Origin: Nitrosopumilus sp.
GTDB lineage: Archaea > Thermoproteota > Nitrososphaeria > Nitrososphaerales > Nitrosopumilaceae
Assembly (NCBI GenBank): GCA_965205425.1
Contig: CBDBGZ010000009.1
Location: 192,001-256,000 of the forward strand
Length of the DNA: 64,000 nt
Direction of reading: 5' to 3'
The notes below the pieces were generated by a model, which ran no database searches, had not been told where the DNA came from, and saw only the letters and a program-made list of their open reading frames with translations. Shown piece after piece: positions 1 to 64,000 of the stretch (position 1 is its first letter; the number at the start of each line of letters is the position of its first letter). Both the position numbers and the translations under genes were made by a program.

Positions 1-1371
1 AATTCCAAACTTTCCCTTGTTTAATGATCGTGGTTTTCTTTTTGGCACAGCAGAACCAACCTCTTCAGTCATTCCTTTTACATTCTTGTTTTTTACGCCT
101 ACTTTTGCACCCTTGGATATTGCCTTTGCTACTTTTGGAACTTTGGGTAAAATGTTAATACCATATTTTGCAGCACCAATAGGTGGAACAATTACACTAG
201 CACCAATAATTAATGCAGATGGCACAGCAGAACCGATACCATATGCAGGATTAGCCCAAAAATCAGTTTCTACTTTTTTAACACGTTCATTGAAATTTTT
301 TGTAAAATCAGTGTTGCTCTCATAAGATTGTACCCCTGCATCCAACGGTGCAAAAATCAAGTTATCTAAGGAATTACCTTTCTGTGGAATCTGTTCTTTT
401 CCTCGTACATACCTAACTACGTTTTGTCCTGTAATGTATAGATCTTTATATCCTGCATGTTGTCCTTTTGCATATTCCTCAAGAGGCGAACCAATTTTTT
501 TGGGTTCAGGTTTTTTCACATCATTAAAAGAGAATTCATCAAATGGGTTACGTTGAGGTACAGTTCTTGCATATGGTATTGGTTCAGGAAATTTCATAGG
601 AACCGTTCCCACTAGTGCAGGGTTTAATTTTGCCTGTTGTACAATACTATCACGTCTTTTTTTATTTTGAGTTGCTCTGATTAGTGCTGCTGCAGATGAT
701 TCCTTTGATGTAACGACAGTTTCATCTACTGTTCTGTTTGCTTGTTGTTGTGCAAATTTACGCTGATCAGGATTTGATACTGATTCTTTTCTAGGGGATG
801 GTCTGCCACCTGCACGTTGTAATTTGGTACTATCATATCCTGCTGATTCAATGCTTTGTTTTACCTTTTGATTCTGTGCAGTTGTTGCTTTGATTTGATT
901 AATTTTATTTTGTTGCTGAGATTCTCTTAATGCAATTTGTCTTCTCTCTTCTGCCTTTACTGCTGCTGATCGTGCATTGGTAATTGATGATCGTCTATTG
1001 TATGCATCTTTTGCTTCTTTGCTTCTGGCATAGTTTCGAGCCAATGTTACAGCTGATGTGTTTCTATATCCTGCAGGATTTCTTGCTATCTGTCTTTGTG
1101 CCTTGGCTTTAGCCCACTGTGGAACGTTTGATTGCCGTAATGCTAGTCTTTGCAACTCTGCATTTCTATTTCTATTAATGGCATTAATTCTGGATGAATA
1201 TCTTCGAATTGCTTTACTGTTTGGTTCTCGGGTATATCCAATCAATCTTCTTATTCCATTGCGAGGATTTGTGCGATATTTTGGTTGTCTGCGATATTTT
1301 GATGGTCTAGCGCCAAGGGCTGCAACCTGAGCATTATATCTACCATTAATTGATTCTCTGGTTAGTGCCAT
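1..1371 (-). CDS. Large Arg/Lys-rich protein, 3'-truncated by window edge (putative virion protein)
   Basis: ATG at 1371 preceded by GGTGAT SD; frame MALTRESINGRYNAQ... open to position 1; missing from the ORF track because there is no stop in the window. Confidence 0.8.
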   Translation of the reverse strand, partial: MALTRESINGRYNAQVAALGARPSKYRRQPKYRTNPRNGIRRLIGYTREPNSKAIRRYSSRINAINRNRNAELQRLALRQSNVPQWAKAKAQRQIARNPAGYRNTSAVTLARNYARSKEAKDAYNRRSSITNARSAAVKAEERRQIALRESQQQNKINQIKATTAQNQKVKQSIESAGYDSTKLQRAGGRPSPRKESVSNPDQRKFAQQQANRTVDETVVTSKESSAAALIRATQNKKRRDSIVQQAKLNPALVGTVPMKFPEPIPYARTVPQRNPFDEFSFNDVKKPEPKKIGSPLEEYAKGQHAGYKDLYITGQNVVRYVRGKEQIPQKGNSLDNLIFAPLDAGVQSYESNTDFTKNFNERVKKVETDFWANPAYGIGSAVPSALIIGASVIVPPIGAAKYGINILPKVPKVAKAISKGAKVGVKNKNVKGMTEEVGSAVPKRKPRSLNKGKFGI

Positions 1372-53994: not shown

Positions 53995-55331
53995 TAACCA
54001 TATGTGCCAAAATCAGCTAGGAAATTAGATGGTACTTGCATTCGTATCAAGAAAGTAAGAAATGCAAACAAACACACTACCCTTCCTGAAAAAAAATATT
54101 TGATGTTTGTAGGATTGGATGTTCACAAGAACTCTGTACAGGTGGCAGCAGTAGATGAGATTGGCAAATTATTATTTAACAAAAAGATTTCCAGTGATTT
54201 TTCTGCTATTAGCAAAATTACATCCAAAATTCCAAAGAACGCAAAATATGTTTTAGAGTCATCATCTGTCTGGTATGGCCTTTATAGACACATGACAGAC
54301 AAATTACATCTTGATGTTATACTATCTAATCCATACAACACAAAGATAATAGCATCATCACTCAAAAAGACTGATAAAATTGATGCGTACCATCTTGCAA
54401 ATTTGCTACGAGGAGGATACATTGCAGAATCATTTGTGCCAGATCACACAATTGTGCAATACAGACAGCTTGTAAGACATCGACACAAGATTGTGCGCAT
54501 CATTGTAAAGATGAAGAATTCCATACATGGTATTACACTACAGGAGGGAATCCATATCAAAGCAACACCATTTTCCTCAGAACACATACGTGCACTTGGA
54601 AAATTGGAGAGTTATAGAATAGATTCGTACCTACAAAGCATAAAATTTCACAAAAAGGAGGTTGCAAAAATAGATTCCATGATACGTCGCATGGTAAATG
54701 ATAATCCTGACGTGTGTATTTTGACATCAATACCTGGAGTTGGACCATACACTGCATTGAGCATATTCTCAGAAATTGCAGAGATTAGTAGATTTTCAAA
54801 TTCTCGCAAGTTATGTGCATATGCAGGGATTGTTCCATCGGTGAGAAATTCTGCAGATACAATACATCACGGAAGAATTACAAAGAGAGGAAGCACCATG
54901 CTAAGATGGTTGCTAGTGGAGGCAATTCATGCACATGTTAGATGCGCACCAGATAGCGACATTACAAAATTTTACAATCGCATTAAGAAAAAGAGAGGGA
55001 CCTCAAAGGCAGCAGTTGCTGCTGCATCAAAGTTATTGCGTGTCATATATTGGATGCTAAAAGAGAGGAGAGAATTTATTCAATGTCATCAATAATTTGT
55101 AAAACATTACAGTTAGGAGTTTGGCCGCGTTTTCACATTGAGGATGCATAATACCTCGAAACTATAACCGCGGTTTCACCTAATAAATGGATGAAGATGG
55201 TACTGAGGGAGATCCTCGAATAGATATGTGTCCGGTTTCATCTTTTGAAAATGAATGGGATCATCTCTAGCGGTAGCCATTCTCATGTGTTGCAAAAGAG
55301 TGCAAATGTTTTTAAAGATTTCACATAGATA
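53995..55331 (+). mobile_element. IS110-B (transposase 54004-55095, intact)
   Basis: VGLDVHK, KTDKID motifs; ends TA-ACCATATGTG and CACATAGA-TA. Confidence 0.92.
55096..55329 (+). ncRNA. Bridge/seek RNA candidate of IS110-B
   Basis: 3' ~150 nt nearly identical to IS110-A; 5' target loop differs. Confidence 0.72.
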
Positions 55332-56453
55332 TGTGAATAAGAAGACAAGGAAATCAGATAGCATAAAAAATGAATCTAACAGTTCCAAAACTTGCAGTGT
55401 ACTCTCTCCAAAAAAGATTACAAACAAACAGATTAGGAAAAATCCAAAGAAAGGCATGTTTGTGGGCATTGATCTGCACAAAAAGTTTCTTCAAGTAGCA
55501 ATAATGGATGATACAGGCAAAGTATCACAAAACGACAAAGTGGATAACACTCATGAATCCATCAAAAAGTATTTTACAAAAATACCAATTTCTGCAAATA
55601 TTGTCATGGAATCCTCATCAGTCTGGTATGACACGTATCGATTTCTGACAGATACTTTGGGATACAAAAACGTCACACTCTCAAACCCATATTTGACAAA
55701 GGCAATTGCTGCATCAAAAAAGAAAACAGACAAGATTGATGCCAAGATATTGGCAGATCTTTTACGAGGAGGATACATTGCCAAATGCTATGTTCCAGAC
55801 AAAAAGATTGTACAACAAAGACAGCTTGTAAGATATAGGAAAAAACTAATCCAATGGAGAACATCTGTCAAGAATTCAGTTCATGGAATATTGTTACAAG
55901 AAGGAATCAAGATTCCAGGAGTTACATTCACTGAAACATACAACAGAAGACTCAAGGCACTAGGAGATTACAGAATAGACGGATTCTTGCAACAAATCAG
56001 CCACACCTTAATTTACAGATTGCAGAGATTAATTCCAAAGTGTATGCTGCTGTAAAAGTTAATCCTGATGCAATTTTAATAAACTCGATTCCAGGAATTG
56101 GGCATTATTCTTCGCTTGTCATTGCATCAGAGATTGCAGATATTGAAAGATTCAATGATTCTCACAAACTGTGTGCATATGCAGGAGTTGTACCATCAGT
56201 TAGAAACTCTGCAGATACAATACACCATGGCAGAATAACAAAACGAGGAAGCATGACATTGAGATGGGTTCTAACCGAGTGTATACACACTCATGCAATA
56301 CATGCCAAAGATAGTGACATTACAAAATTTTACAATCGCATTAAAAAGAAAAGAGGATCATCCAAAGCTGCAGTAGCTGGTGCATCAAAGATCCTGAGGG
56401 TGATTTATTGGATGTTAAAGGAGAGGAGAGAATTTGTACAAAATTATAGTTAG

Positions 56454-60631: not shown

Positions 60632-61775
60632 TGAGACATGGGCATAACTAATTCTAATTTTTGAGTCAATTCTCAAATTATTCAAATAGAAAAAGCTAAG
60701 GATCTTATCATGTTTTGTTCATTGTAATGTCAAAACAAATGAAAATCCCTAACAAGATTCTATCGGAATCATTTCTTATTGGTATGTTACATTTGGTGGG
60801 AATGTTGTCTTTGTATGAAGAGATACTGAAAACTTGGTAGACCGTACGTATACTCTACAATTCTAATGGTACAGCTGTCCATCATAAAATCTTGGATGAG
60901 AATTCCTAGTAACAATACATTACATTATTTCCTTTCAATCAAACCTTCCAATGACAAACTGCTCAAGGTTTGCAAATTAACTCAAATTCCAGACAGAAGA
61001 ACTATTGACAGACGATTTCAATTTCTACCCATTAGTGACATGATTAGTACCATGGGCAACAAATTCATCTCAGAGGGATTGGTGGAAAATGTTTCAGCAT
61101 CAGGGGATAGTTCAATGCTAAAAGCAGATGGTCCAGTATGGCACAAATCAGACATAAAGAACAATCGTCTACCAATCCCAGGAATTGATACTGATGCAAA
61201 ATGGGGTTTTTCAAAATCAAAGGGTTGGATATTTGGATACAAACTGCACATGAGTTGCAGTACTGGAAAACTGATAGTTCCATTGTCTGCTGATGTTTCA
61301 ACTGCAAATGTTTCTGATGGTAAAATGTATGAAACGTTAGTCAAACCACTTGCAGGACTAGTTGAAAATGTTCTATGTGATGTGCCATATGATGATAAAT
61401 CATTATATCAGTTTAGTGATGGGAGACATTTGAGATTGATTTGTCCTATCAAAATATATCCATCAACACCGCCAGAGCGAATCAAACTTGCAGATTTTTA
61501 TAATTCTGTACAAGGTCAAGAGTTGTACTCACAAAGAAAAGTCTCAATTGAACCTTTATTTGAAATATTCAAAGATACGTTCAACATTAGAACTGTACAT
61601 GTGAAAGGATTTGACAACGTGAAATCATTTGTATTGGTTTGTGTGTTGGTGTATCAACTTGTAGTATATTACAACTGTATAATTGGAGCAGAAAATCCAA
61701 GAACTGTAAAGAGAATGCTTTGCTGTTAGGAAATGACTGAGAGTTATTTTTGTAAATAATTATGCCCAAGTCTCA
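60632..61775 (+). mobile_element. IS4/IS5-superfamily DDE element, transposase degraded at the 5' end
   Basis: TIR TGAGACWTGGGCATAA; DSS, GYKLH and RKVSIE motifs. Confidence 0.85.
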
Positions 61776-62136
61776 GATATTTTGGTACAAGTTCCAAGTC
61801 ATTATGAGAATGAATATTTTTTTCAAAGTAATTCTCAGATGGACCCATTACAACATAGTGAGATAACACATTAAATGCCCCGTTTGATTTTATTGGTTCT
61901 GCCCTGAACCCTTGGCAGGTATCTGAACCCTTGAATTTGAAAACAAAATGGCTTGCATCTCCAGGGTACAATGAACCATCAGGATTGTTTCGGAATTGTC
62001 CTCCATATGAAATAGGAAATAGTTTTCCGTCAATACTAACACTGCATGGTTTTTCTAAACTCTGATGAGTTGCATATGCGGTAGTAACAACAATCGGAAT
62101 GAATAATAGTAAAAATAACAAGAGAATAATTTTCAC
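61776..62136 (-). pseudogene. 5' part of a secreted protein truncated by the IS
   Basis: Signal peptide; ORF runs into the TIR. Confidence 0.6.
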
Positions 62137-62375: not shown

Positions 62376-62417
62376 ATATTCTACCTAATACATAACGTTA
62401 ACATATTCTACCTAATA
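62376..62417. promoter_or_regulatory. Direct repeat ATATTCTACCTAATA x2 in a divergent promoter (putative operator)
   Basis: Exact 15-mers at 62376 and 62403, between the AbrB-like gene and the tRNA. Confidence 0.65.
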
Positions 62418-62429
62418 ATTAATATTTGT

Positions 62430-62500
62430 GGGCCAGTAATTCGAAGGTCGAATCTCTAGTCGTCAACTAGAAGGCTCGGGTTCGATTCCCGACTGGTCCA
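62430..62500 (+). tRNA. Atypical tRNA: anticodon GTC (Asp) on an Ala-type acceptor (G3:U70, A73), with C33
   Basis: GGGCCAG/CTGGTCC-A; D ATTC/GAAT; AC TCTAG-TCGTCAA-CTAGA; T TCGGG-TTCGATT-CCCGA. Confidence 0.85.
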
Positions 62501-62535
62501 CGTAATGTTTATTTAGAAATGATATGTAGAATAAT

Positions 62536-62580
62536 TAGTTGACGACTAGATGTTAGTTCGCCTTTGAACTAGCCTTTTTT
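62536..62580 (+). ncRNA. Sequence antisense to the 5' half of the upstream tRNA, ending in a hairpin and T6
   Basis: TAGTTGACGACTAGA is the exact reverse complement of 62455-62469; degenerate complementarity continues through the D arm and acceptor. Confidence 0.55.
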
Positions 62581-62655
62581 CTATTTTCTGAAAATTTTAG
62601 AGGGGTTTAACATCTAGGCATAATTTCAAAAAATCATTACACCATTGAGTTTTTG

Positions 62656-62897
62656 TGCGTAAGTAAATTTTGTGACAATATCGTATTGTGCCATCGGGCT
62701 GAAATGAGGTTTGATTGTTCCATTTACGAACAAAAGCTAAACCCGCCCTGAATTTTGGGAATTGTAAAAAATTCACATCATGCCTGATGTGAATACAATA
62801 ATTGAGGGGGTGAATATTTACGCATAAGTTTTTTCCAATTTTACATATTTGATAGGGGGTTTAGCTTTTAGGCACAAATTTGGTCATTAACAAATTT
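62656..62897 (+). ncRNA. Candidate large multi-stem structured RNA with possible pseudoknot
   Basis: Stems 62686-92/62871-77, 62732-44/62857-69, 62771-80/62785-94; two small hairpins; 62656-65/62815-24 pairing; G-U pairs favour + strand. Confidence 0.55.
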
Positions 62898-62931
62898 TAT
62901 TAATTCATCATGTAATAATAAATTAGAAACA

Positions 62932-63019
62932 CGTCAGGAATGGGATTCGAACCCATGAAACCGATGTACTCAGCAAAGAGATTTTCAATCTCTCGGTATT
63001 ACCACTAACCGATCCTGAC
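62932..63019 (-). tRNA. Atypical class II tRNA: anticodon GAA (Phe) with long variable arm and G73 (Ser-type body)
   Basis: GTCAGGA/TCCTGAC-G; D GGT/ACC; AC AGAGA-TTGAAAA-TCTCT; 20-nt variable region with GCTGA/TCGGT stem; T ATGGG-TTCGAAT-CCCAT; upstream TTAAATA. Confidence 0.85.
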
Positions 63020-63267
63020 GAGTTTTCTTCTAAAAATTCCTATTTAAGAATTGGTTCTGATGTATTCAAGTGAATAAAATCTTAGAATATTCAACCTTTA
63101 AAAAATAGAAATTTGTATTATTATTACGGTTCCGTTGGTGTAATGCTGACTATGAGACTTGGAAACAAGAGCTCAGGGATCGACTTTATCTTTCAACATT
63201 TCAATATATGAAAAAATAACTAATATTGTAAAATTTCATAAAACCTCTATTTCTCATTATTCTCACA

Positions 63268-63483
63268 ATGGTCAGCCGTGACTTTGTAATTTTGGATTAT
63301 TCACACCAAAGAAAGTACAGAAATCATACATGTGCAAAATGCGGAGACTTATTTAGTATAGGTGATGCTGTCCATACTCAAAGAACAAAACGTTCTAAGA
63401 GAATATGTCACAAACAATGTTGGGAGTCAATGTATACCCCAGATCATAAGTCTTTTCAATTTATTGTTCTTGCAAAATACTGA
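63268..63483 (+). CDS. Small LIM-like Zn-finger protein, 3' end overlapping an IS
   Basis: CAKC...CHKQC. Confidence 0.55.
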   Translation: MVSRDFVILDYSHQRKYRNHTCAKCGDLFSIGDAVHTQRTKRSKRICHKQCWESMYTPDHKSFQFIVLAKY

Positions 63484-64000
63484 TACATATTCAAATTAAA
63501 TTTGTGGGTTCTAAAATATTCCATAACTGTATGTCTCATCTCATGAATAGATTCATAAAATTCTGATTCAACATTAACATGTTTGCACTGTCTCCAAATC
63601 TCTTCAATCATACTCAAATGTGGAGAACCTCTTGGAAGATATGCCAGTTTGACATCTTTGTTTTTACGCAGATATTCTTTTACATCATTAGCTTTGTGTT
63701 GCGGTGCTCTATCGACGATAACAAATATTTTCCCGAATTTTTTACGAGCTGCCTCCAAATAATCCATAAATGCAATTGAGTTAAATTTTTCATACGATCT
63801 AAAAAAACTTTGATTATCATCAGTCATCATTCCATAAACCAAAAATCTTTGGTGCGATCCTCTCCAACGTACAATCATTCGTTGGTGTACATCTGTCCAG
63901 TATTTTTTACCAAGACGTACATCGTCTACAAATACAGACTCGTCTTGGATGAATACTGTAAAACCTTTCTTTTTTGCCTTTTCTATGCGTGAAATGATGC
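63456..64000 (-). mobile_element. IS630-family transposase (partial)
   Basis: IVDRAPQH, LPRGSPHLSMIEEIW. Confidence 0.85.

What the first reader, a model, noticed from the sequence alone, without database searches (positions are those of the whole stretch)
62536..62580. Built-in antisense to the Ala/Asp tRNA (candidate antitoxin or folding switch)
Seen: 35 nt downstream of the tRNA, on the same strand, is a perfect 15-nt complement of its anticodon arm. It is followed by GTTCGCCTTTGAA and CTAGCC, which complement the D arm and acceptor 5' strand largely via G-U-compatible changes. It has its own 8-bp hairpin, a T6 run and an upstream TTTATTTA box. Inference: a separately transcribed anti-tRNA, or a 3' trailer that misfolds the precursor until processed. 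The best-preserved part covers the anticodon.
Basis: partly seen in the sequence, partly recalled or inferred. Interest (0 to 1): 0.82.

Follow-up and report, generated by a model that had tools for sequence, protein, structure and literature searches.

The report
tRNA gene paired with own antisense RNA
An ammonia-oxidising archaeon carries several odd tRNA genes (alanine-type acceptor stem, but aspartate, phenylalanine or leucine anticodons), each next to a small gene whose RNA is complementary to that tRNA's own 5' half, which looks like a built-in mask for a potentially mis-decoding tRNA.

Summary
Window 62536-62577 is complementary to the 15-nt anticodon arm and to the whole 5' half (positions 1-40) of the tRNA at 62430-62500. 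It has 35 pairs: 30 Watson-Crick, 4 G.U and 1 A.C.

It is one member of a family found in at least 12 of 151 genomes of the genus, with 7 intact copies in this genome. It was not found in 150 other genomes of the order.

Both the cloverleaf and the tRNA/antisense duplex are supported by compensatory changes. All 26 intact tRNAs have A73, 25 of 26 have G3.U70 (the alanine identity set), and none has an alanine anticodon (GTC 11, GAA 8, AAG 4, CAG 2, ATC 1).

The antisense unit has its own TATA-like box and ends in a T-run. In a second arrangement it sits upstream on the opposite strand, so it must be a separate transcript.

No conserved protein partner was found. Copies lie in IS-rich, non-syntenic places, and orphan antisense genes and truncated tRNAs exist.

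Best reading: a dedicated antisense small RNA that masks a potentially mistranslating tRNA, in an RNA-only, toxin-antitoxin-like logic. Expression, charging and toxicity are untested.

The parts
62397..62407 (+). AT-rich promoter-like box about 33 to 23 nt before the first base of the tRNA (inferred promoter of the tRNA gene)
   Evidence: Most of the 17 tandem modules have an AT-rich box at about -33 to -23, and G1 is preceded by a conserved T-G-T in nearly all. Ordinary tRNA genes of the genome carry their box at about -38 to -29 (read by eye). That this is a promoter is an inference.
62430..62500 (+). tRNA with alanine acceptor identity (G3.U70, A73) and aspartate anticodon GTC (62462-62464). 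Its anticodon loop at 62460-62466 has C at position 33.
   Evidence: ARAGORN. Rfam tRNA 52.4 bits. Cloverleaf covariation: 98.1% of cells paired, 11 of 20 pairs with changes on both sides. Identity positions.
62508..62515 (+). TATA-like box of the antisense gene. Its T-rich stretch may also end transcription of the tRNA gene.
   Evidence: Seven of its eight bases are invariant in the 8-sequence alignment. It ends 19 nt before the pairing starts here, and 17-22 nt before it in 15 of 16 parsed modules. Function is inferred from archaeal promoter geometry (recalled).
62536..62550 (+). Antisense segment 1: a perfect complement of the anticodon stem 5' strand, the whole anticodon loop and 3 nt of the 3' strand
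   Evidence: In the helix-3 alignment counts, 11 of 15 pairs have changes on both sides.
62552..62574 (+). Antisense segment 2: complement of the D arm (itself an 8-bp hairpin, 62552-62573) and of the acceptor 5' strand
   Evidence: helices 1 and 2. The hairpin loop changes together with the D loop in homologues.
62575..62580 (+). T6 run, the inferred terminator of the antisense RNA
   Evidence: A T-run follows the complementarity in all 8 aligned modules, and on the antisense strand in 7 of 7 opposite-strand modules.
62376..62422 (+). Two copies of a 20-nt direct repeat just upstream of the tRNA (possible regulatory site; unexplained)
   Evidence: family D2, 90% identity. The same repeat pair stands upstream of the module of genome G167.

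Best explanation
This is a two-gene, RNA-only module.

Gene 1 (62430-62500) is a structurally intact tRNA. Its acceptor stem carries the alanine identity set (G3.U70, A73), but its anticodon reads aspartate codons. If alanyl-tRNA synthetase charges it, it would put alanine at Asp codons.

Gene 2 (about 62535-62580) has its own TATA-like box and T-run. It makes a small RNA of about 45 nt that mirrors the tRNA's 5' half. This RNA has two stem-loops: an anti-anticodon arm, then an anti-D arm, followed by the anti-acceptor segment.

The small RNA pairs with its own tRNA. It probably starts at the anticodon loop or catches the nascent 5' half before the 3' half is made. That pairing hides the anticodon and prevents or undoes the cloverleaf, so the tRNA stays out of translation unless the antisense runs short.

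Shown here:
- the tRNA fold
- the identity positions
- the complementarity, its covariation and its specificity for the cognate partner
- the two gene arrangements

Inferred:
- transcription of both genes
- charging with alanine
- harm from the free tRNA
- neutralisation by the antisense
For: 1. Duplex under selection. In 8 aligned modules 91.4% of cells pair and 17 of 35 pairs change on both sides. No shuffle of 500 reaches this, and slid controls stay at or below 44%. RNAalifold itself picks this long-range duplex.

2. Non-Watson-Crick cells are mostly G.U on the tRNA's strand (41 G.U, 8 A.C, 16 other). This points to pairing as RNA on that strand.

3. Specificity.
- Among 17 modules the mean cognate energy is -42.0 kcal/mol, against -22.7 (sd 6.6) for non-cognate pairs.
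- The cognate is the best partner for 16 of 17 tRNAs and 17 of 17 antisenses.
- Among the 7 modules of this genome, every cognate pair (-39.8 to -45.6) beats every non-cognate pair (-35.7 at best).

4. The tRNA fold is also under selection. 98.1% of cells pair, 11 of 20 pairs have double changes, and G3.U70 is kept in 8 of 8 while positions 4-7 change with compensation.

5. Identity positions.
- Of 26 intact members, A73 is present in 26, G3.U70 in 25 and A37 in 26.
- Anticodons are GTC 11, GAA 8, AAG 4, CAG 2, ATC 1, and none is an alanine anticodon.
- In this genome G3.U70 with A73 occurs only in the 3 ordinary tRNA-Ala genes and these 7 genes.

6. Own transcription unit.
- A TATA-like box ends 17-22 nt before the pairing in 15 of 16 parsed modules.
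- In 7 modules the antisense gene is upstream on the other strand, with an AT-rich box before it in 6 of 7 and a T-run at the end of the complementarity in 7 of 7.

7. The antisense has no other near-perfect target in the genome, and ordinary tRNAs are poor partners.

8. Selfish-module hallmarks.
- No conserved protein neighbour in 19 loci.
- IS-dense surroundings.
- Non-syntenic flanks.
- A patchy distribution: 12 of 151 genomes of the genus.
- Three orphan antisense genes without a target.
- 5'-truncated tRNA copies.

9. Published work. AlaRS recognises G3:U70 and ignores the anticodon. In yeast, 36 of 60 tRNA-Ala anticodon variants slowed growth and 52 of 57 caused mistranslation (abstract of 10.1101/2022.11.23.517754).
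Against: - No expression data of any kind. No RNA run is on record for this organism, so both promoters, both RNA ends and the pairing in cells are inferred.
- Charging with alanine is inferred from identity positions only.
- The GTC and GAA anticodons are themselves identity elements for AspRS and PheRS (recalled). A73 is the normal discriminator of tRNA-Phe (recalled). Some copies might therefore be charged correctly, or doubly.
- This window's copy has C at position 33, as do 5 of 26 members. U33 is almost universal in elongator tRNAs (recalled), so its decoding may be poor.
- 11 of 26 members have one mismatch in the anticodon stem.
- One tRNA (G015) pairs better in silico with a foreign antisense than with its own.
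- The G.U excess includes one column that is G.U in all 8 sequences, and related sequences are not independent.
- A mature, modified tRNA is hard to invade, so full-duplex formation may need co-transcriptional capture, which is speculative.
Confidence: 0.45

Rival explanations
1. Cis folding switch. The tRNA gene is read through to the T-run at 62575-62580. The 3' trailer folds back on the 5' half and keeps the precursor inactive until the trailer is removed.
For: The single 152-nt RNA folds into this hairpin at -53.4 kcal/mol, z -5.16. No run of five or more T lies between the tRNA and the antisense in this copy, so read-through is plausible. Covariation fits cis pairing as well as trans pairing.
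Against: In 7 related modules the antisense lies on the opposite strand, upstream of the tRNA, and cannot be part of the same transcript. A conserved TATA-like box sits at promoter distance before the antisense. Three orphan antisense genes exist without a cognate tRNA.
Confidence: 0.15
2. An RNA pair with a role outside translation. The tRNA-shaped RNA could be a decoy, a sponge, a processing handle or a copy-control or incompatibility RNA. Its variable anticodon arm would serve as a specificity tag read by the antisense, and no mistranslation would be involved.
For: The anticodon stem is the fastest-changing part, and the partners are orthogonal within one genome. This resembles antisense control RNAs of plasmids (recalled). 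C33 in 5 of 26 members and a stem mismatch in 11 of 26 suggest relaxed decoding constraints. The modules sit among mobile elements.
Against: The loops are not random tags. A37 is present in 26 of 26 and U33 in 21 of 26, and only five anticodons for three amino acids occur, while the stems vary freely. G3.U70 and A73 are kept although neighbouring pairs change. The elbow positions of real tRNAs are invariant. No replication or other partner gene is conserved nearby. No second target of the antisense exists in the genome.
Confidence: 0.2
3. A DNA-level feature with no RNA function: an inverted duplication of a tRNA 5' half, the terminal inverted repeats of a small tRNA-derived mobile element, or an integration scar.
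For: The arms form an imperfect 40-nt inverted repeat in IS-rich DNA. Copies sit in non-syntenic places. Truncated and mosaic copies exist.
Against: Copies are only 70-84% alike, yet both arms change together. Mismatches are biased to G.U on one strand. The opposite-strand arrangement turns the pair into a direct repeat while keeping the T-run on the antisense strand, so no DNA hairpin or terminal inverted repeat is conserved. The 3' half of the tRNA keeps pairing with the 5' half, which a transposon end would not need. Integration into tRNA genes duplicates 3' parts in direct orientation (recalled), not 5' halves.
Confidence: 0.07
4. Chance complementarity beside an ordinary tRNA pseudogene.
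For: None beyond the AT-rich, repeat-rich setting.
Against: 0 matches expected in shuffles. z -5.16. Conserved and covarying in 12 genomes.
Confidence: 0.01

Closest known systems
Type I toxin-antitoxin systems (hok/sok type; recalled)
   Same: A small antisense RNA with its own promoter is encoded beside the RNA it neutralises by base pairing. The systems are multi-copy, patchy, found in mobile DNA, have no other partner, and include orphan antisense genes.
   Different: The target here is a tRNA, not an mRNA for a small membrane peptide, and there is no toxin reading frame. Harm would come from mis-decoding. Toxicity and differential stability are untested.
Mistranslating tRNA-Ala anticodon variants of yeast and human (10.1101/2022.11.23.517754, abstract read; PMC12084884, listing only)
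   Same: A tRNA with G3:U70 and a non-alanine anticodon. The anticodon plays no part in charging by AlaRS.
   Different: Those are engineered or sporadic single-base variants of normal genes. Here diverged gene families keep such anticodons across species, and each has a co-evolving antisense gene.
Bacterial hybrid-identity tRNAs for deliberate mistranslation (PMC10404621; start of the abstract in the listing only)
   Same: Naturally kept tRNA genes whose acceptor identity and anticodon disagree.
   Different: They are bacterial. As recalled, they come with a dedicated synthetase paralogue. Here there is a single AlaRS gene and an antisense RNA instead.
Kissing-loop antisense control RNAs of plasmids (CopA/CopT, RNA I/RNA II; recalled)
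   Same: The antisense RNA is a mirror image of the target's stem-loops. Its loop is complementary to the target's loop, and pairing specificity diverges between related elements.
   Different: Those control replication primers or rep mRNAs. No replicon genes are present here.
T-box leaders (recalled)
   Same: An RNA that reads a tRNA's anticodon by base pairing.
   Different: T-boxes pair with 3-4 nt plus the 3' end, are bacterial mRNA leaders and sense charging. Here about 35 nt of the 5' half pair, and no downstream gene is controlled.
YrlA / bacterial Y RNA (Rfam RF02553)
   Same: A tRNA-like T arm enclosed by a long helix, in the one-transcript fold.
   Different: Scores 20.7 bits against a gathering score of 69, E 0.44. 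It is not a member.

Membership tests
tRNA (Rfam RF00005) | Cloverleaf with conserved D and T loop positions, scoring above the family's gathering score | tested here: met
   52.4 bits against 29. ARAGORN call. Cloverleaf pairs 98.1% kept, with 11 of 20 pairs compensated.
tRNA-Ala | G3.U70 pair and A73 discriminator (identity set for AlaRS; abstract for G3:U70, A73 recalled) | tested here: met
   This copy has both. G3.U70 is present in 25 of 26 and A73 in 26 of 26 family members. In the genome the two are otherwise found only in the 3 ordinary tRNA-Ala genes.
tRNA-Ala | Anticodon NGC | tested here: not met
   GTC here. 0 of 26 members have NGC.
tRNA-Ala | Charged with alanine by AlaRS | not testable with these tools
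   Needs an aminoacylation assay. The genome has one AlaRS gene.
tRNA-Asp | GUC anticodon together with the G73 discriminator seen in the genome's ordinary tRNA-Asp | tested here: not met
   The anticodon GTC is present, but the discriminator is A. The ordinary tRNA-Asp (contig 9, 482364-482441) has G73 and an unrelated acceptor stem.
Type I toxin-antitoxin | Toxin is a small protein translated from the target mRNA | tested here: not met
   The target is a tRNA. No reading frame lies in 62430-62580.
Type I toxin-antitoxin | Antisense RNA with its own promoter that pairs with the toxin RNA | tested here: inconclusive
   Pairing and covariation are shown. The promoter and terminator are inferred from conserved boxes and spacing. 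There are no RNA data.
Type I toxin-antitoxin | Target is harmful when the antisense is lost | not testable with these tools
   Needs expression tests.
Small inverted-repeat transposable element (MITE) | Near-identical copies bounded by terminal inverted repeats | tested here: not met
   Copies are 70-84% alike with compensated arms. In 7 modules the arms are in direct orientation. Target-site duplications were not looked for.
Box C/D guide RNA | Conserved C and D boxes flanking the guide | tested here: not met
   No such boxes among the conserved columns between the tRNA and the antisense in the 8- and 17-sequence alignments (read by eye). No Rfam hit.
Split or intron-bearing archaeal tRNA (bulge-helix-bulge substrate) | Two 3-nt bulges separated by a 4-bp helix at the junction | tested here: not met
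   In the predicted duplex the two 3-nt bulges are 12 bp apart, and they are not conserved in homologues. The tRNA is complete without splicing.
YrlA (RF02553) | Score at or above the gathering score | tested here: not met
   20.7 bits against 69.

The most novel reading that the evidence does not exclude
An RNA-only toxin-antitoxin (or abortive-infection) system of archaea. The toxin is a tRNA that alanyl-tRNA synthetase charges and that inserts alanine at Asp, Phe or Leu codons. The antitoxin is a short-lived, co-evolving antisense RNA that caps the anticodon and unfolds the tRNA. Several mutually orthogonal pairs coexist in one genome, and orphan antisense genes act as immunity against incoming copies.
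Probability: 0.25. Interest if true: 0.95.

Novelty: categorically new. Interest (0 to 1): 0.82.

Why it matters
If the reading holds, it would be the first case of three things:
- a tRNA gene with a dedicated, co-evolving antisense RNA gene
- natural alanine-identity tRNAs with non-alanine anticodons kept across species in archaea
- a toxin-antitoxin-like module made of two non-coding RNAs, with mistranslation as the harmful activity

It would make conditional, genetically encoded mistranslation testable in archaea. It would also give a natural set of orthogonal tRNA/anti-tRNA pairs as tools for switching a tRNA on and off.

Even if the tRNA is not used in translation, two mutually exclusive structures are both supported by covariation (the cloverleaf and a 35-bp intermolecular duplex). 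That makes it an unusually clear new RNA-RNA system. My four literature searches found no description of such pairs. They cover open-access papers and bioRxiv only.

Tried and rejected
- **RNA evidence.** The look-up of sequencing runs listed 5 holders from 3 studies, and no RNA holder is listed. Read laying was therefore not used, and expression stays open.
- **Earlier findings of this scan.** Three look-ups returned nothing.
- **Protein partner.** ORFs of 60 aa or more in 19 loci were clustered. No family recurs in more than 3 loci. One of the two 3-locus families is the IS630-like transposase. Pfam scans of neighbours give transposases and unrelated housekeeping genes.
- **Box C/D guide, bulge-helix-bulge substrate, Y RNA.** Considered and rejected; see the membership tests.
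- **Viral contigs.** The hairpin pattern gave 3 hits and none is a module.
- **Metagenome contigs.** 55 pattern hits, of which 2 are true modules. The exact pattern only finds close relatives.
- **Order-wide scan.** The covariance model found only ordinary tRNA-Ala genes in two genomes outside the genus.
- **Sponge idea.** The 15-nt seed has no other site with up to 1 mismatch in the genome.
- **Antisense for the neighbouring long-arm tRNA family.** Nothing above background within 600 nt.
- **Global similarity of the 7 tRNA-likes to ordinary tRNAs.** This did not single out tRNA-Ala. tRNA-Ala genes are among the top four matches for 6 of 7 copies and the top match for only 3. Descent from tRNA-Ala is therefore not shown, only the identity positions.
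- **Parsing limits.** One module (G161) gave a spacing of 8 because I had cut its tRNA wrongly. The script stopped before the 17th module (G159).

Full report
**The observation**

The window's last 1.6 kb holds a 72-nt tRNA at 62430-62501 (+). ARAGORN calls it tRNA-Asp with anticodon GTC, and Rfam's tRNA model scores it 52.4 bits against a gathering score of 29.

- A 15-nt stretch at 62536-62550 is the exact reverse complement of 62455-62469. That target covers the 5' strand of the anticodon stem, the whole 7-nt loop and 3 nt of the 3' strand.
- The 15-mer occurs nowhere else in the window, with 0 expected in 100 shuffles. It occurs nowhere else in the 2.2-Mb genome at up to 1 mismatch.
- The complementarity runs beyond the anticodon arm. 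RNAduplex pairs tRNA positions 1-40 with 62535-62577 at -44.5 kcal/mol.
- As one RNA, 62430-62581 folds at -53.4 kcal/mol, z -5.16.

**It is a family**

The genome is 9 contigs, 33% G+C, has archaeal amoA and no tmRNA. It has 53 ARAGORN tRNA genes.

- Seven of them carry G3.U70 and A73 but a non-alanine anticodon. The only other genes with that pair and discriminator are the three ordinary tRNA-Ala genes.
- An eleventh row, tRNA-Pro GGG, was flagged by my script with 6 of 7 pairs and discriminator C. I take that as a register error.
- In a scan of every tRNA's 5' half against its 300-nt flanks, these seven are the top seven (-38.7 to -69.9 kcal/mol). Ordinary tRNAs score -20.5 to -36.5. The two highest values come from two tandem copies matching each other.
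- Four of the seven have the antisense downstream on the same strand, as in the window. Three have it upstream on the opposite strand.
- An eighth copy, 5'-truncated, lies on contig 4.

**Distribution**

I built a covariance model from 8 modules and scanned with it.

- In the genus it found full-length matches of 38 bits or more in 12 of 151 genomes. The tool's tally of 74 of 151 at E 0.01 is mostly partial matches to the T arm of ordinary tRNAs.
- I inspected 16 further matches. They include intact modules whose antisense lacks the hairpin sequence seen in the window. The 3' part of the antisense is therefore simply the complement of each tRNA's own D arm and acceptor strand.
- In 150 other genomes drawn from the order, only two ordinary tRNA-Ala genes matched weakly.
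- An exact-pattern scan gave 0 modules among 3 viral hits and 2 modules among 55 metagenome hits.

**Covariation**

Counts come from a MAFFT alignment of 8 modules from 4 genomes.

- The tRNA/antisense duplex keeps 91.4% of 280 cells paired, and 17 of 35 pairs have changes on both sides. No shuffle of 500 reaches any of the five measures, and sliding the partner by 1-3 columns drops pairing to 25-44%.
- The anticodon-arm helix is the most variable, with 11 of 15 pairs compensated.
- One member changed its anticodon from GTC to ATC, and its antisense changed to match.
- Cells that are not Watson-Crick are G.U 41, A.C 8 and other 16. This excess is expected if the strand shown pairs as RNA. One column is G.U in all 8, and the sequences are related, so the count overstates independence.
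- The cloverleaf is supported too: 98.1% paired, 11 of 20 pairs compensated, and G3.U70 unchanged in 8 of 8 while positions 4-7 vary.
- Without any alignment, among 17 same-strand modules the cognate antisense is the best of 17 for 16 tRNAs, and the cognate tRNA is the best for 17 of 17 antisenses. The mean is -42.0 against -22.7 kcal/mol. The exception is G015.

**A separate gene**

- A TATA-like 8-mer follows the tRNA by 4-24 nt and ends 17-22 nt before the first paired base in 15 of 16 parsed modules. G161 gave 8 because of my wrong cut, and G159 was not parsed. This fits the archaeal rule of a TATA box centred about 26 nt before the start (recalled).
- In the 7 opposite-strand modules the antisense strand shows the same order: an AT-rich box (found in 6 of 7), 7-20 nt, the complement of the anticodon arm, D arm and acceptor, then a run of 5 or more T at the end of the complementarity in 7 of 7.
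- That arrangement excludes co-transcription with the tRNA.
- Most tRNA-likes also have an AT-rich box at about -33 to -23 from G1 (by eye).

**What the tRNA is**

Of 26 intact members (24 genomic, 2 metagenomic):

| Feature | Count |
|---|---|
| G3.U70 | 25 of 26 |
| A73 | 26 of 26 |
| A37 | 26 of 26 |
| U33 | 21 of 26 |
| C33 | 5 of 26 (including the window's copy) |

- The anticodons are GTC 11, GAA 8, AAG 4, CAG 2 and ATC 1, with no NGC.
- The stems differ widely, while the loops stay anticodon-like and use only three amino acids' codons.
- AlaRS reads G3:U70 and not the anticodon, and such variants mistranslate and often slow growth in yeast (abstract).
- The genome has one AlaRS gene.

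**Context**

- The last 24 kb of the window and the surroundings of the other copies are full of IS4/5, IS110, IS630 and IS3-type transposases.
- No protein family recurs beside the modules.
- Homology between loci is mostly confined to the module itself.
- Three antisense genes (two in G153, one in G036) have no matching tRNA anywhere in their genomes.
- 5'-truncated tRNAs with an intact antisense exist.

**Reading**

The evidence shows two genes whose RNAs pair. Both the tRNA fold and the duplex are under selection, and each antisense is specific for its own tRNA.

The most economical function is that the small RNA masks a tRNA that would otherwise put alanine at Asp, Phe or Leu codons. This is an antitoxin-like or conditional-mistranslation device. 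That step is inferred.

Expression, charging and harm are all untested, and the C33 of this copy argues for weak decoding. The rivals are:
- a cis folding switch
- a non-translational RNA pair
- a DNA-level repeat

They are weighed in their own sections.

Four literature searches found work on mistranslating tRNAs but none on tRNA/antisense gene pairs.

Noticed in passing
window 62931-63020 (-): A second odd tRNA lies 430 nt away: a long variable arm (type II), discriminator G, anticodon GAA (Phe). Rfam tRNA scores it 56.9 bits.

- There are three diverged copies in this genome.
- Relatives occur in 10 of 151 genomes of the genus, and 8 of those 10 also carry the alanine-type modules.
- ARAGORN finds GAA in 8 of 10 loci scanned and no tRNA in the other 2.
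- Serine-type identity with a Phe anticodon is possible.
- No antisense above background within 600 nt.

   Followed up: partly
window 62582-62682: The 101 nt after the T-run are 95% identical to the stretch after the module on contig 9 at 711083-711182, which is higher than the modules themselves (84%). They contain a G-run/AGGC motif that recurs across the genus, often as facing pairs about 60 nt apart. Similar motifs stand at about 62800-62880. Their nature is unknown.
   Followed up: partly
window 40496-64000: A very IS-dense stretch: IS4/5-type DDE transposases, three IS110-type genes (one of them split, 55255-56450) and an IS630-type gene running off the window's end (63456-63998, -). 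The IS630 end is repeated about 20 times in the genome.
   Followed up: no
L099 (metagenome contig), module at 400-548 (-): A mosaic locus. An opposite-strand-type antisense gene is followed by a complete same-strand module and then the 3' half of an opposite-strand-type tRNA. It looks as if one module had replaced the 5' half of another, which hints at recombination between module types.
   Followed up: no
G000 contig 4, 165846-166126: Two opposite-strand modules in tandem, 209 nt apart. Their backbones are nearly identical but their anticodon loops differ (AAG and GAA), and each has an antisense matching its own loop.
   Followed up: partly
window 61744-62136 (-): A 130-aa ORF with a hydrophobic N-terminus and no Pfam match lies about 300 nt upstream of the tRNA. 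A 71% similar DNA stretch lies at the same relative place beside the module of genome G036. It is seen in only two loci.
   Followed up: no
window 62445-62566 (+): A weak Rfam match to YrlA (Y RNA-like): 20.7 bits against a gathering score of 69. It is produced by the T arm enclosed in the long helix and is not a member.
   Followed up: yes
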